DNA of 41,800 bases from Escherichia phage vB_EcoD_Teewinot: the sequence record NC_073053.1; one strand, written 5' to 3'. The stretch's first letter is position 1. Each line of letters begins with the position of its first letter. A model generated the notes under the pieces. It was not told the DNA's origin, searched no databases, and saw nothing but the letters and a program-made list of their open reading frames with translations. This document shows positions 23,978 to 27,514 of this stretch, piece by piece. The translations under genes and the position numbers were made by a program.

Positions 23978-24198
23978 TTCAACTCCTCGATCAGATTCAT
24001 ACGAACAACACGGGCAGAAAAAGCGTCACACACAAGATGACAACGGGCGGTCATTACAAGCCAGCCGGTGAGGTCAAGGCCCATGATGTATTCGGGGCGA
24101 GACGCGCGCACCACACGATTGCGTCGCGGGTCAATACAGTAGTATTTTTGCATTTGGTCTACTACCGCGGGGTCGCGGTCAACGATTAAGATATTCAA
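23974..24198 (-). CDS. hypothetical protein
   Basis: 74 aa ORF, start and stop overlap neighbouring genes (translational coupling). Confidence 0.4.
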   Translation of the reverse strand: MNILIVDRDPAVVDQMQKYYCIDPRRNRVVRASRPEYIMGLDLTGWLVMTARCHLVCDAFSARVVRMNLIEELK

Positions 24199-24664
24199 GG
24201 AGTTCTCCTTCGCTCATTATTTCAATTTGTGCGCTGCCGATGGGTGGCGCTTCGTCAAAGATTATCAATTGCTGGCACTTGTTATTGCGAGGCCCGACTT
24301 CGCCGGTGACGGCGTGAATGAATCTAATCCGCCAGTCCAGAAGAATTATCAGGTTTGCAGTCTTCCTGGCCAGCTTCGCCCACTTCGTCGACGTGTCCTG
24401 ATTCAGTAGCATGACAGTCCGGCGTCCGTGCGCTGCACACTCGACCCACGGCAGCGGATCGGAATACGGCGGATTGCACCACTTCCACCCTTTCAACTCT
24501 GACCAGTCCACATCAAGCGCGCTGTGCTCTGCCGTGAAGTAACGCGGTAGCAGATGGTTGGCGTAGCTTGCCGCCATATCGTAACGGAATCGGAACTTAC
24601 GGCGCAGCGGTTTAAATAAAGCTGGCGGCGTGCGCCAGCTATCTTTCTGCTCACTCTTCTGCAT
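24179..24664 (-). CDS. DNA N6-adenine methyltransferase (phage Dam-type)
   Basis: 161 aa with DSWRTPP near the N-terminus and WCNPPYS (NPPY catalytic motif). Confidence 0.7.
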   Translation of the reverse strand: MQKSEQKDSWRTPPALFKPLRRKFRFRYDMAASYANHLLPRYFTAEHSALDVDWSELKGWKWCNPPYSDPLPWVECAAHGRRTVMLLNQDTSTKWAKLARKTANLIILLDWRIRFIHAVTGEVGPRNNKCQQLIIFDEAPPIGSAQIEIMSEGELLEYLNR

Positions 24665-25094: not shown

Positions 25095-25337
25095 TTATTT
25101 AATCTCCGTAGTGCGGATTTCCTTGCGCGGAATAAATTTGCCGTCTTTCTCGACCCAGCAAGTTCCGAAACGCCATTGGGTATTACGGCCTGTTTGCTCG
25201 GCATATACGGTCTTGCATTCGTAGCGTTCCGTATAGTAAATAGCCGCGGTAGGTACGAAAATACAAACGGCAAACATGAGGGTGAGTATCACCCAAAATC
25301 GAAGGTCGCCGTCGTAGTCGAAAAATAATGATCTCAT
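25095..25337 (-). CDS. small membrane protein
   Basis: 80 aa with one clear TM helix (FWVILTLMFAVCIFVPTAAIYY). Confidence 0.45.
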   Translation of the reverse strand: MRSLFFDYDGDLRFWVILTLMFAVCIFVPTAAIYYTERYECKTVYAEQTGRNTQWRFGTCWVEKDGKFIPRKEIRTTEIK

Positions 25338-25351
25338 CGTGTTGTCTCCAG

Positions 25352-25383
25352 GTATTAAAAAGGGCGTCCAAACAGGACACCCT
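25352..25383 (-). terminator. minus-strand terminator
   Basis: On the minus strand AGGGTGTCC-tgttt-GGACGCCCT followed by TTTTAAT; the mismatch is a G-U wobble only in the minus-strand RNA. Confidence 0.5.
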
Positions 25384-25401
25384 TAATGTAATGCAACCAA
25401 T

Positions 25402-25725
25402 TTACGCATAAAAGTTTGGGTCGCGTGCAACGTCTACCAGGTAAAGGTTGCTTATGCGGTTGCCGTAGTGCCCTGGAGTGCGCTGGCGGCACACAACGGC
25501 GAAGCCTGGAGGGATTGTATTGCCCGTCTCAATAATCCATGCCACGCGTGCGCCAGACAGCGTCTTGCCGTTGCATTCGATGCGTGTCCCACCATCGGCA
25601 GTATTGATGTTGCCAATCTTGCATCCGGTGGACTTCAGACGGATGACTCCGGTTTTGCTGTCGTAGGTGAATAGCTGGTTAGTCATTGCGACCGAAAAAT
25701 CGATTGGTTCGTATGTAGCGTTCAT
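25402..25725 (-). CDS. HNH_3-like protein with degenerate catalytic motif
   Basis: 107 aa; ARVAWIIETGNTIPPGFAVVCRQRTPGHYGNRISNLYLV aligns by eye to the HRLVWE...G.IP.G..IDHINGD..DNR..NL pattern of HNH_3 homing endonucleases, but the DH of IDH is replaced by VC. Confidence 0.45.
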   Translation of the reverse strand: MNATYEPIDFSVAMTNQLFTYDSKTGVIRLKSTGCKIGNINTADGGTRIECNGKTLSGARVAWIIETGNTIPPGFAVVCRQRTPGHYGNRISNLYLVDVARDPNFYA

Positions 25726-25907
25726 TTTAAATTTTCCTCGTTAACCGCTATCGCGAAGCCGCGCGGAGTGAGCGACCGGATTAATTTTGTGCGGGCTGAT
25801 TTACCACCGAGGCGACTATACTGTTTCGAGTACCCTTTTTCAACGAAAACAGGTTTCTTCTCTGGCATACGGAAGCCGCTGCCGTCAAACAATGGCCAGA
25901 TTATCAT
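25722..25907 (-). CDS. hypothetical protein
   Basis: 61 aa ORF tightly packed between helicase and HNH-like gene with overlapping start/stop codons. Confidence 0.35.
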   Translation of the reverse strand: MIIWPLFDGSGFRMPEKKPVFVEKGYSKQYSRLGGKSARTKLIRSLTPRGFAIAVNEENLK

Positions 25908-27328
25908 TTGCGCGCCTTCTTAGCTTTCATGTATTCCATCAAGTCGTCCTGAATGTCTCGCTTACTGTCGCGACGCTCGGCGACCAATTCGTCCAGTGTC
26001 CCGCGAGCCTGGATAATGTAGACGAATACTGGTCGAGGGTGTCCGGCTTGCATCTGGCGAACCGGCCCGATACGTTCAACGATCTGCGAAAAGTGTTCAA
26101 AGTTCCAGGTGTCGGAGAAGATTGCCAGGTGATGACCGCCGTCCTGCAAGTTAAGGCCGTGGCCCGCCGATGCCGGGTGTGCAAACATGATGGGGATCTC
26201 GCCCCTGTTCCATGCTTCCATATCCTTATTGCCCTGCTTACCTTTACCCAACGCAACGCCGTGCGGGAATTTCTTCTTGAGACGTGCCAGATCATGCTTG
26301 TACTGGTAGGCAACGAGCAACGGTGCGCCGTTCAACTCCTCCACGATACTTTCCAGCGCGTCCAGTTTAGCGTCGTGAATTTTCACCCATTCGTCGGTGC
26401 GCTCGCCGTCTTCGTCGACCTTATACACGGCCCCGGAAGCAAGCTGAAGGCACTTAATAGTCTTCGAAGCAGCGTTCGCCGCCTCCACCGTTCCGCTTTC
26501 CAGTTCGGCAAATAGCTCCGCTTCGAATTGGTCATAAATCTTGCGGGCTTTTTTCGGCAGGTCCACAACAACCGGCGTATAGATTGGCTTGTCACACCCG
26601 AAGTATTCAGCCGCATCAACGGTTAGCGACACGTCGGACAGTCGTTGTTGTATTTCTTTCTCGGAGTTCTTAAGCGGGGCGTGCTGCATCGTGAAGCTGC
26701 CAGGCTTAACAGGCTTGCTAATAAACCAGCGGTCCGTGAACGCCTTATAGCTACTGCCGAGACGTTCGCCGCCGTCGACAAACCACGTCTGACCCCATAG
26801 GTCTTTCAGCCCGTTCGGTGCGGGTGTGCCAGTCAGGTTAATCCAGCGCTTGACGTGCTTATGTGCGATCGCTGCCAGCGCACGGGCGCGCTTACTTCCC
26901 TGCTTGCTTCTATAGCCTTTCAGCTTAGTCGATTCATCGGCAACAACGACCGTAAAGGGCCACTCGTCGCCGTAATAGTCGACCAGCCACTCAACCACAT
27001 CGTAGTTAACACAAACCACGTTAGCGTCGCTCTCAAGCGCCGCAATACGGTCCTTCTCCGGCCCGGTGCCGTCTACTACCAGCAAGGCTGGGAAGCGCCA
27101 TTTCTCCTGTTCCGGGGGCCATGTACCGGACGCAACGCGCAGCGGGGCCAGCACCAGTACGCGGTCATCCTGGTTGGACAGGATGCCAGTCTGGAACATT
27201 TTATTCAGCGCCCACATGGTCGCGCCGGTTTTACCCGACCCCATTGTCGCCCAAATATTGCAGCGCTTATGCTTGAGGATGAACGCGGTTATCAACTTCT
27301 GATATTCGCGACGTCGGAAACGTGCCAT
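25904..27328 (-). CDS. SNF2-family helicase
   Basis: Walker A TMGSGKTG, DExx box VVADESTK, C-terminal helicase domain. Start placed at ATG 27328 (MARFRRREYQ); the alternative ATG 27418 has no RBS. Confidence 0.75.
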   Translation of the reverse strand: MARFRRREYQKLITAFILKHKRCNIWATMGSGKTGATMWALNKMFQTGILSNQDDRVLVLAPLRVASGTWPPEQEKWRFPALLVVDGTGPEKDRIAALESDANVVCVNYDVVEWLVDYYGDEWPFTVVVADESTKLKGYRSKQGSKRARALAAIAHKHVKRWINLTGTPAPNGLKDLWGQTWFVDGGERLGSSYKAFTDRWFISKPVKPGSFTMQHAPLKNSEKEIQQRLSDVSLTVDAAEYFGCDKPIYTPVVVDLPKKARKIYDQFEAELFAELESGTVEAANAASKTIKCLQLASGAVYKVDEDGERTDEWVKIHDAKLDALESIVEELNGAPLLVAYQYKHDLARLKKKFPHGVALGKGKQGNKDMEAWNRGEIPIMFAHPASAGHGLNLQDGGHHLAIFSDTWNFEHFSQIVERIGPVRQMQAGHPRPVFVYIIQARGTLDELVAERRDSKRDIQDDLMEYMKAKKARK

Positions 27329-27514
27329 ATCTTTATTCCGCCTTTTTCCAGACTTCTGTTTCACTGTTCCAGTTCCTTTTTGTGGCGTCGTAGTTGGTGG
27401 CGTGTCCGATGTGCACACCGGTAGCCCGGTTTACATTCGCCCAGCTTGGTGAGTCGGTAGTGTTCTTTCATCGTCATGTCTCCCAAAAATGGCGGGACAA
27501 GCCCGCCGTATTAA

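What the first reader, a model, noticed from the sequence alone, without database searches (positions are those of the whole stretch)
25402..25725. HNH_3-like protein with the catalytic histidine motif replaced
The protein matches the HNH_3 homing-endonuclease pattern on both sides of the active site, but the metal-binding DH is replaced by VC-R-Q. It may be an inactivated endonuclease retained as a DNA-binding protein.
Basis: partly seen in the sequence, partly recalled or inferred. Interest (0 to 1): 0.4.

Follow-up and report, generated by a model that had tools for sequence, protein, structure and literature searches.

The report
Dead HNH nuclease kept by phage
A small, strongly conserved gene of an E. 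coli phage (genus Dhillonvirus) encodes a relative of HNH homing endonucleases that has lost its catalytic residues, so the usual database label "HNH/homing endonuclease" is probably wrong about what it does.

Summary
Window 25402..25725 (minus strand) encodes a 107-aa protein that is a true homologue of the HNH_3 / I-HmuI-type nuclease module. Evidence: PHROG 99 at E 3.8e-16, hhalign against 19 canonical modules at 99.4% (E 1e-21), and I-HmuI as the top PDB fold match.

Where all 19 canonical modules have the Asp-His dyad, this protein has Val78-Cys79. It also lacks the upstream His (Ala59). It ends 9 residues after the second beta-strand, so the helix that carries the metal-binding Asn is missing. 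Only the structural Asn (Asn93-Leu94) survives.

It is not a decaying or mobile homing endonuclease:
- It occurs in every dhillonvirus record that matches this region (about 156) and in eiAU-like phages.
- It always lies just downstream of the SNF2-family helicase gene.
- It is under strong purifying selection (median dN/dS 0.06).

The most likely reading is a domesticated, non-catalytic nucleic-acid-binding accessory protein of the phage replication module. DNA binding and any partnership with the helicase are inferred, not shown.

An invariant, subfamily-specific His86 leaves a small chance of a rewired active site.

This is a new variant of a known kind and of modest interest.

The parts
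25402..25725 (-). Gene for the 107-aa HNH_3-like protein that lacks the catalytic residues
   Evidence: ORF list and sequence; PHROG 99 E 3.8e-16; hhalign 99.4% to canonical HNH_3 modules; I-HmuI is the top PDB fold match; median dN/dS 0.06
25483..25494 (-). Codons V78-C79-R80-Q81, which occupy the place of the canonical I-D-H-I-N active-site strand (D-H aligns with V78-C79)
   Evidence: MAFFT and hhalign registers; codons read directly; D-H is present in 19/19 canonical modules
25549..25551 (-). Codon A59, in place of the conserved His of the 'aHRlaW' helix (H56 of I-HmuI)
   Evidence: Alignments (His in 17/19 canonical modules; A, P or L in the subfamily); I-HmuI numbering
25468..25470 (-). 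Codon H86, a subfamily-specific invariant His in or next to a 2-residue insertion in the loop between the two finger strands (motif GHY[GA][NQ]R)
   Evidence: Invariant in all 10 subfamily sequences down to 37% identity; absent from canonical modules
25444..25449 (-). Codons N93-L94, the retained structural Asn of the HNH motif (equivalent to I-HmuI N87)
   Evidence: Invariant in all 17 aligned sequences; I-HmuI numbering; role of N87 from PMC2816704
25735..25739 (-). Ribosome-binding site GAGGA, 9 nt upstream of the ATG
   Evidence: Read from the sequence
25722..25907 (-). 61-aa remnant of the Dcm-like C5 cytosine methyltransferase gene. Its stop overlaps the start of the HNH-like gene (ATGA) and its start overlaps the helicase stop.
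   Evidence: Alignment to phage Oekolampad dcm; same deletion junction in phage Opt212
25904..27418 (-). SNF2-family helicase gene, the constant upstream neighbour of the HNH-like gene in all four lineages examined. The ORF is listed from a GTG; relatives annotate 1425 bp.
   Evidence: Pfam SNF2-rel_dom E 8.4e-11; synteny in Maverick and Oekolampad, eiAU, and L021 and L022
25357..25384 (-). Terminator-like hairpin (GGGUGUCC-UGUUU-GGACGCCC followed by U5) just downstream of the stop codon
   Evidence: RNA fold -21.9 kcal/mol, z -2.67; not listed by the consensus terminator scan, so tentative

Best explanation
The gene encodes a domesticated, catalytically dead copy of the HNH_3 (I-HmuI-type His-Me finger) nuclease module.

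What it keeps: the N-terminal beta-sheet, the 'RvAW' helix, the two strands of the finger and the structural Asn.

What it has lost: the metal-binding Asp, the general-base His, the upstream His, and the C-terminal helix with the second metal ligand.

It is no longer a mobile homing endonuclease. It is a fixed core gene of the leftward DNA-replication/modification gene block of dhillonviruses and their relatives, and it is translationally coupled to the genes behind the SNF2-family helicase.

Shown here: homology, loss of the catalytic residues, predicted fold, fixation, synteny and purifying selection.

Inferred: it acts without cutting, by binding nucleic acid through the surface that I-HmuI uses to hold DNA, as an accessory factor of phage DNA replication or recombination, possibly together with the adjacent SNF2 helicase.
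For: Homology:
- PHROG 99, E 3.8e-16.
- The exhaustive profile search returns canonical HNH_3(+AP2) proteins as the only distant relatives.
- hhalign 99.4%, E 1e-21.
- The AF2 model has pLDDT 85.9; its top PDB hit is I-HmuI at probability 0.99; 55 phage HNH-type matches in BFVD.

Loss of the catalytic apparatus:
- D-H aligns with V78-C79, and with T/R-C, R-P or T-L in other subfamily members.
- The first His aligns with A, P or L.
- There is no helix after strand 94-98, and the chain ends at residue 107.
- Canonical modules keep D-H in 19/19, the first His in 17/19, and Asn at +9 in 18/19.
- The roles of D74, H75, N87 and the metal-binding Asn of I-HmuI come, and from my own knowledge of Shen et al. 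2004.

Function is retained:
- Median pairwise dN/dS is 0.06 over 120 pairs.
- tblastn finds the gene in 160 phage records: all ~156 dhillonvirus records matching this region plus 4 eiAU-like phages.
- It is kept even where the neighbouring dcm gene is deleted.

Context:
- It always lies 0-1 genes downstream of an SNF2-family helicase.
- No other HNH gene is annotated in the related genome Oekolampad.

Precedent:
- His-Me fingers that lost catalysis but kept DNA or substrate binding are known: Smad MH1 and ENPP (PMC5714182).
- The same pattern of loss recurs in the N-terminal modules of tandem HNH_3-AP2 proteins.
Against: - No biochemical or genetic data exist for this gene. Literature searches found none.
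- DNA binding is only inferred. The pI is only mildly basic (6.6-10.1 across the subfamily).
- H86, R90 and N93 are invariant, and a D/N lies 8-9 residues after N93 in every complete member. A minimal rewired His + Asn/Asp metal site cannot be excluded, because model coordinates could not be inspected.
- Synteny with the helicase may simply reflect the shared genome plan of related phages rather than a functional partnership.
- The AF2 model was built on an alignment that includes canonical HNH_3 proteins, so the fold match is not fully independent of the sequence homology.
Confidence: 0.6

Rival explanations
1. It is still an active nuclease with a rewired active site. The subfamily-specific invariant His86 in the finger loop would act as the general base. 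Asn93 and/or the Asp/Asn found 8-9 residues later (D102 in the window) would hold the metal, as in minimal His-Me enzymes that use a single Asn ligand.
For: - H86, R90 and N93 are invariant down to 37% identity.
- A D or N occurs at +8/+9 after N93 in every complete subfamily member.
- I-PpoI and Serratia nuclease need only one Asn metal ligand. In HpyAV, the general-base mutant H295A kept about 1% of activity (PMC2816704).
- Strong purifying selection on the 75-98 segment: 295 non-synonymous versus 990 synonymous differences.
Against: - H86 lies mid-loop, not at the end of strand 1 where every known His-Me general base sits.
- N93 is homologous to the structural Asn, not the metal-binding one.
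- The alpha-helix that positions the metal ligand and lies in the minor groove is absent, and D102 is followed by Pro.
- The positions corresponding to D and H vary freely within the subfamily: V/T/R and C/L/P.
Confidence: 0.15
2. It is a non-catalytic protein that works mainly through protein-protein contacts rather than DNA binding. Examples: a regulator or specificity factor of the neighbouring Dcm/Dam methyltransferases, or a decoy or inhibitor aimed at a host defence or at a competitor's HNH nuclease.
For: - Translational coupling (ATGA) to the upstream dcm gene.
- Methyltransferase genes lie next to it in dhillonviruses and in eiAU.
- Tandem proteins pair a dead module with a live one, which suggests that module-module contacts exist.
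Against: - The gene is kept under the same constraint where dcm is deleted (the window and Opt212).
- It is also kept in a phage contig with no methyltransferase nearby (L021).
- Relatives carry extra DNA-binding-type stretches (NUMOD-like, HTH), not protein-interaction domains (sub-threshold scores).
Confidence: 0.17
3. It is a decaying remnant of a homing endonuclease with no function of its own, kept only by chance or by constraints from overlapping signals.
For: - The catalytic residues are lost, and the protein is short compared with the 383-position PHROG 99 profile.
- One orthologue (phage SSL-2009a) is frameshifted.
Against: - Median dN/dS is 0.06, with dS up to 1.6.
- The full-length ORF is intact in about 159 of 160 records and across genera at 37-41% identity.
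- The position is fixed rather than sporadic, as a mobile element would be.
Confidence: 0.03
4. The resemblance to HNH_3 is a chance or compositional match, and the protein belongs to an unrelated fold.
For: - The Pfam HNH_3 hit is below threshold (13 bits, E 0.08).
- No NCBIfam hit and no PDB sequence hit.
- The first, shallow AF2 model gave no PDB match.
Against: - PHROG 99 at E 3.8e-16.
- hhalign at E 1e-21 over 86 columns.
- The exhaustive HMM search recovers only HNH_3 proteins as distant hits.
- I-HmuI is the top fold match, with 55 BFVD matches.
Confidence: 0.01

Closest known systems
I-HmuI (PDB 1U3E), the HNH homing/nicking endonuclease of Bacillus phage SPO1 and the structural prototype of Pfam HNH_3 / His-Me finger group 2
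   Same: The predicted fold of the first ~100 residues matches: N-terminal antiparallel sheet, the 'HRlva' helix and the two strands of the finger. It is the top PDB match (Foldseek probability 0.99, 87 columns, 23% identity). The structural Asn (I-HmuI N87) is kept as N93.
   Different: The equivalents of H56, D74 and H75 are A59, V78 and C79. There is a 2-residue loop insertion with an invariant His. There is no finger alpha-helix (the I-HmuI N96 region) and no C-terminal NUMOD or HTH domains. The gene is a fixed core gene, not intron-encoded or mobile.
Phage/prophage HNH_3 (+AP2) endonucleases of the 'YDpeTG...aHRlaW...DHiNg..DNR..NLR..t.sqN' type (PF13392, PHROG 99)
   Same: These are the closest sequence relatives outside the subfamily. 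The whole ~90-residue module aligns, including the YD-x-TG hairpin, GK-x-(5)-R-x-AW and (D)NR-x-x-NL.
   Different: They keep D-H in 19/19, the first His in 17/19 and the +9 Asn in 18/19, and most continue into an AP2 DNA-binding domain. The window protein has none of these.
Degenerate N-terminal modules of tandem HNH_3 proteins
   Same: They show the same pattern of loss: first His, D-H and the +9 Asn are gone while the NL Asn is kept. Similarity to the window subfamily equals that of the live modules (hhalign 99.3%).
   Different: Those modules are covalently linked to a live module (except in P0017) and use an aromatic residue where the His was (F/Y-x-[ND]-G-[ND]). The window protein stands alone and has its own GHY[GA][NQ]R loop signature. 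It is therefore probably an independent inactivation.
Inactivated His-Me fingers: the Smad MH1 domain and the nuclease-like domain of ENPP1-3/autotaxin
   Same: Members of the same superfamily that lost the catalytic His and were kept for DNA or substrate binding (PMC5714182). This is a precedent for the proposed mode of action.
   Different: They are eukaryotic, belong to different His-Me groups (16 and 21), are embedded in larger proteins, and have no detectable sequence similarity to this protein.
ZRANB3 (SNF2-family annealing helicase with an HNH endonuclease domain)
   Same: It pairs an SNF2-family motor with an HNH-type module (listed in PMC5714182). That resembles the constant helicase/HNH-like gene pair seen here.
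   Different: In ZRANB3 the HNH domain is fused to the motor, is active, and belongs to a different His-Me group. Here the module is a separate polypeptide and apparently dead. The analogy is a lead only.

Membership tests
Pfam HNH_3 (PF13392) | Score at or above the curated gathering cut-off (24.8 bits) | tested here: not met
   13 bits, E 0.082, only residues 60-77 matched to profile positions 5-21 of 46
Pfam HNH_3 / I-HmuI-type His-Me finger | Asp-His dyad at the end of finger strand 1 (I-HmuI D74 metal ligand, H75 general base) | tested here: not met
   Aligns with V78-C79 (hhalign and MAFFT), or with R80-Q81 in a gap-free register. D-H is present in 19/19 canonical modules.
Pfam HNH_3 / I-HmuI-type His-Me finger | Structural Asn before strand 2 (I-HmuI N87, the 'NL' motif) | tested here: met
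   N93-L94 are invariant in all 17 aligned sequences. Role of N87 from PMC2816704.
Pfam HNH_3 / I-HmuI-type His-Me finger | Alpha-helix after strand 2 that carries the second metal ligand (Asn 9 residues after the NL Asn; I-HmuI N96) | tested here: not met
   The chain ends 14 residues after N93. No helix is predicted after strand 94-98. Position +9 is D102, followed by Pro. Canonical modules have Asn at +9 in 18/19. Whether D102 could still bind metal is open.
Pfam HNH_3 / I-HmuI-type His-Me finger | Overall fold of the N-terminal sheet plus finger | tested here: met
   Foldseek: 1u3e_M ranks first (probability 0.99, E 0.023, TM 0.49 normalised to the query). BFVD phage HNH proteins give TM 0.6-0.7. 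This is a predicted model, not a solved structure.
PHROG 99 (HNH endonuclease) | Significant match to the family profile | tested here: met
   E 3.8e-16, 60.7 bits, residues 9-99 to profile positions 108-198 of 383. This is sequence-family membership only and says nothing about activity.
Free-standing homing endonuclease gene | Sporadic presence/absence among closely related genomes, with insertion between conserved genes | tested here: not met
   Present at the same position in all ~156 dhillonvirus records that match the region, and in eiAU-like phages
Free-standing homing endonuclease gene | Site-specific DNA cleavage or nicking activity | not testable with these tools
   Needs a nuclease assay. 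The sequence predicts inactivity.
Inactivated (non-catalytic) His-Me finger proteins | Loss of the catalytic His (or its Tyr counterpart) while the protein stays under selection | tested here: met
   No His or Tyr at the catalytic position in any subfamily member (C, L or P). Median dN/dS 0.06.
Inactivated (non-catalytic) His-Me finger proteins | Retained nucleic-acid or substrate binding | not testable with these tools
   Indirect hints only: homology to the DNA-contacting part of I-HmuI, pI 8.9, and NUMOD-like or HTH-like extensions in relatives at sub-threshold scores

The most novel reading that the evidence does not exclude
A stand-alone HNH_3 module that lost the canonical Asp-His has been fixed as an obligatory partner of the phage SNF2-family helicase. 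It would act either as a dead DNA-structure sensor that directs the motor to forks or junctions, or as a nuclease with a relocated general base (His86 in the finger loop). The second option would be a previously undescribed active-site geometry for the His-Me finger.
Probability: 0.15. Interest if true: 0.55.

Novelty: new variant of a known kind. Interest (0 to 1): 0.35.

Why it matters
Roughly 150 deposited dhillonvirus genomes label this gene 'HNH endonuclease' or 'homing endonuclease'. Several of these phages belong to widely used collections such as BASEL and the SECphi phages. The evidence here says it is neither mobile nor likely to cut DNA.

Correcting the label matters for three reasons:
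- Counts of mobile elements and nucleases in phage genomes would change.
- Phages with a 'nuclease' annotation are sometimes flagged during safety screening of therapeutic candidates.
- Phage nucleases are often suspected as triggers of bacterial defence systems.

It also gives a clean, small (107 aa) natural example of a nuclease module turned into a non-catalytic core replication-module protein. The same kind of loss recurs inside tandem HNH_3-AP2 proteins. The constant pairing with an SNF2-family helicase offers a directly testable hypothesis about accessory factors of phage fork-remodelling motors.

Tried and rejected
- The Pfam hit alone is too weak to decide: 13 bits, and it does not cover the active site.
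- NCBIfam gave no hit.
- PDB sequence searches gave only noise, both with the protein and with the subfamily profile.
- The first AF2 model, from a 6-sequence alignment (pLDDT 73, loop 82-91 below 50), gave no meaningful Foldseek match. It was replaced by a model from a 17-sequence alignment.
- Word-index homologue searches found only the small subfamily: 6 clusters, then 11. The link to canonical HNH_3 proteins came only from the exhaustive profile search.
- Literature searches for dhillonvirus or SECphi18 HNH, for I-HmuI catalytic residues and for 'inactive/degenerate HNH' found no study of this gene. A Retron-Eco7 escape locus in a dhillonvirus (phage98) is described only as a protein of unknown function and could not be tied to this gene.
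- I considered a Zn site involving C35, C51 or C79 and rejected it, because none of these Cys is conserved in the subfamily.
- The promoter-like site inside the dcm remnant (25843..25815) is not above chance: 1 found against 2.3 expected.
- I considered a functional dependence on Dcm and rejected it as obligatory, because the gene persists where dcm is deleted or absent.
- Model coordinates are not exposed by the tools, so the distance of H86 to the former active site could not be measured.

Full report
**What the window is.** The 3.5 kb around the finding matches 156 phage records at 80-95% identity. Nearly all are Escherichia phages of the genus Dhillonvirus (HK578-like siphophages). In annotated relatives the region belongs to the leftward block of DNA-metabolism genes. 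The order is PD-(D/E)XK nuclease, SSB, DNA polymerase I, three small genes, helicase, Dcm-like C5 methyltransferase, the gene in question, two small genes, Dam-like methyltransferase, phosphatase. Pfam confirms the window's own SNF2-family helicase (25904..27418), Dam (24179..24664) and family-A polymerase.

**Checking the observation.** It has a GAGGA ribosome-binding site and an ATGA overlap with the upstream ORF.

Pfam alone would not settle the matter. HNH_3 scores 13 bits (E 0.08, cut-off 24.8) and covers only residues 60-77. NCBIfam and PDB sequence searches are empty. Stronger tests are clear:
- PHROG 99 ('HNH endonuclease') matches residues 9-99 at E 3.8e-16.
- An exhaustive profile search of 1.8 billion representatives finds only 24 proteins. 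The nearest few share the odd motif. All the distant ones are canonical HNH_3 proteins, often with an AP2 domain.
- I cut 19 canonical modules out of those hits and compared them with the 10-member subfamily by hhalign. The result was 99.4% probability, E 1.1e-21, 86 aligned columns running across both sides of the active site.
- An AlphaFold2 model built on a 17-sequence alignment reached pLDDT 85.9. [quoted passage not shown] It also matches 55 phage HNH, AP2 or homing-endonuclease models in BFVD at E <= 1e-3.

The homology is therefore real and well above chance.

**State of the catalytic residues.** The I-HmuI numbering can be read: H56-R57 in the helix, D74-H75 at the end of finger strand 1, N87-L88 before strand 2, and N96 in the following helix.
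- The Asp at the position before the general base is a metal ligand, and N87 hydrogen-bonds to the general-base His (PMC2816704).
- That H75 is the general base, and that D74 and N96 hold the metal, is my own knowledge of Shen et al. 2004.

| Position (I-HmuI) | Canonical modules | Window protein |
|---|---|---|
| First His (H56) | 17/19 | A59 |
| Asp-His dyad (D74-H75) | 19/19 | V78-C79 |
| Structural Asn (N87) | 19/19 | N93 (kept) |
| Asn at +9 (N96) | 18/19 | D102, followed by Pro; no helix |

After V78-C79 come R80 and Q81, where Q81 aligns with the N/D of 'DHiN'. A 2-residue insertion follows, in or next to which sits H86, and then G88-N89-R90 for 'DNR'. A gap-free count back from N93 would put D-H on R80-Q81 instead. 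No register supplies a His or Asp at the dyad.

The chain stops 14 residues after N93. The model shows no helix after strand 94-98, and position +9 is D102 followed by Pro. So the first three of the five tracked positions are clearly lost, the helix that carries the fifth is missing, and only the structural Asn remains.

Across the subfamily the former D and H positions drift freely (V/T/R and C/L/P). H86, R90 and N93 are invariant.

**The gene is functional.** I extracted 16 orthologous coding sequences (the window plus 15 viral-contig loci). I computed Nei-Gojobori distances for all 120 pairs. Median dN/dS is 0.06, with dS up to 1.65.

tblastn finds the protein in 160 phage records. These are all the dhillonvirus records that match the region plus four Edwardsiella eiAU-like phages at 41% identity. 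Only the SSL-2009a copy is frameshifted.

A fixed position in every genome and strong purifying selection are the opposite of what a mobile or decaying homing endonuclease shows.

**Context.** In dhillonviruses, in eiAU, and in two metagenomic phage contigs whose proteins are 40% and 58% identical, the gene lies 0-1 genes downstream of an SNF2-family helicase.
- Methyltransferase genes are frequent neighbours but not constant ones. L021 has none.
- In the window the dcm gene is reduced to a 61-aa in-frame remnant.
- A hairpin followed by a U-run lies directly after the stop codon. It was missed by the consensus scan, so it is tentative. If it is a terminator, the gene closes the helicase transcription unit.
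- The eiAU orthologue has an N-terminal stretch resembling the NUMOD-like domain of I-HmuI. P0009 has a C-terminal HTH-like tail. Both score below the curated cut-offs.
- No other HNH gene is annotated in the related genome Oekolampad.

**A wider pattern.** Many of the distant HNH_3-AP2 proteins carry two or three tandem modules. In these, the N-terminal copies have lost the first His, the D-H dyad and the +9 Asn, but keep the NL Asn. This is the same pattern of loss as in the window protein. P0017 has three such modules and no intact one.

The window subfamily is as similar to these dead modules as it is to live ones (hhalign 99.3% against 99.4%). However, it has its own loop signature, GHY[GA][NQ]R, so it probably represents an independent inactivation.

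Inactivated His-Me fingers kept for binding are already known elsewhere in the superfamily: Smad MH1 and ENPP (PMC5714182).

**Most likely mechanism.** Shown here: this is a member of the HNH_3 lineage by descent, with the catalytic apparatus dismantled, fixed in the replication module and under strong constraint.

Inferred: it acts without cutting. It would bind nucleic acid through the sheet-plus-finger surface that I-HmuI uses on DNA, as an accessory factor in replication or recombination, possibly with the SNF2 helicase encoded just upstream. ZRANB3, an SNF2 motor fused to an HNH domain, is a loose analogy. I put this at about 0.6.

**Rivals.**
- A rewired active nuclease using invariant H86 together with N93 and/or the D/N at +8/+9 (about 0.15). 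Some His-Me enzymes need only one Asn ligand. Against it: H86 is mid-loop, N93 is the structural Asn, and the helix is missing.
- A protein-protein adaptor, regulator or decoy rather than a DNA binder (about 0.17).
- A functionless remnant (about 0.03), contradicted by the selection analysis.
- A chance resemblance (about 0.01), contradicted by the homology tests.

**Membership.** The protein belongs to the HNH_3 / PHROG 99 sequence lineage by homology and predicted fold. It fails the Pfam cut-off and three defining catalytic features. It also fails the distribution criterion for a homing endonuclease. It should not be filed as an 'HNH endonuclease' or 'homing endonuclease'. 'HNH_3-like protein, catalytic residues absent' is the defensible name.

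**Novelty and score.** Loss of catalysis in His-Me fingers is a known theme, and the gene family is already in databases under a misleading name. What is new is a stand-alone dead HNH_3 module fixed as a core phage gene next to an SNF2 helicase, with an invariant new His. I rate it a new variant of a known kind, interest about 0.35. Nothing here is surprising enough to rank high without biochemical evidence, but the mis-annotation is widespread and the hypothesis is cheap to test.

Noticed in passing
window 25722..25907 (minus strand): The Dcm-like C5 cytosine methyltransferase gene (711 bp in phage Oekolampad) is reduced here to a 61-aa in-frame remnant. The deletion lies between imperfect direct repeats GGCAGCGGCTT / GGCAACGGCTT. 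Both ATGA overlaps, with the helicase stop and with the start of the HNH-like gene, are preserved. Phage vB_EcoD_Opt212 has the identical junction, while 148 of 151 matching records keep at least 80% of dcm. One paper states that a phage-encoded cytosine methyltransferase activates retron Eco1 (PMC12916289 introduction), so loss of dcm could be an escape from such defences. That link is speculation.
   Followed up: partly
window 25357..25384 (minus strand): A hairpin GGGUGUCC-UGUUU-GGACGCCC followed by U5 lies right after the stop codon of the HNH-like gene (fold -21.9 kcal/mol, z -2.67). It looks like an intrinsic terminator closing the helicase/dcm/HNH-like unit, but the consensus terminator scan did not list it. 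The flanking sequence differs in Oekolampad.
   Followed up: partly
P0013-P0019, P0021, P0024-P0026 (distant homologues): Many HNH_3(+AP2) proteins contain two or three tandem modules. The N-terminal copies lack the first His, the D-H dyad and the +9 Asn. They have an aromatic residue where the His was, with the motif F/Y-x-[ND]-G-[ND]..[ND]L[RK]..NL. P0017 has three such modules and no intact one. This recurrent 'dead + live' architecture did not turn up in the literature searches run here.
   Followed up: partly
L003 3866..4321 (Edwardsiella phage eiAU gp31) and P0008 / P0009: The eiAU/eiDWF orthologue has an N-terminal extension resembling the NUMOD-like domain of I-HmuI (PF22083, 20.7 bits, below the cut-off of 27). 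The eiDWF cluster representative is 181 aa, while the eiAU record annotates 151 aa, so the start codon is uncertain. P0009 has a C-terminal HTH-like tail (E 0.04-0.1).
   Followed up: partly
NC_012223.2 (Escherichia phage SSL-2009a), P0006: This orthologue is frameshifted after about residue 75. The deposited protein has an unrelated C-terminus, and tblastn needs two pieces to cover it. This is either a sequencing error or the only natural knockout of the gene among ~160 records.
   Followed up: no
records listed (e.g. MG065648.1 Campylobacter phage A144, GQ502199.1 Sodalis phage SO-1): Records named after Campylobacter, Acinetobacter, Salmonella and Sodalis hosts carry DNA about 90% identical to E. 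coli dhillonviruses over this region. The host labels may reflect contamination or mis-assignment.
   Followed up: no
window 25095..25337 (minus strand): The next gene downstream is an 80-aa ORF with a hydrophobic stretch (WVILTLMFAVCIFVPTAAIYY) and no Pfam match. It is conserved as a 'hypothetical protein' in relatives. It looks like a small membrane protein in the middle of a DNA-metabolism operon.
   Followed up: no
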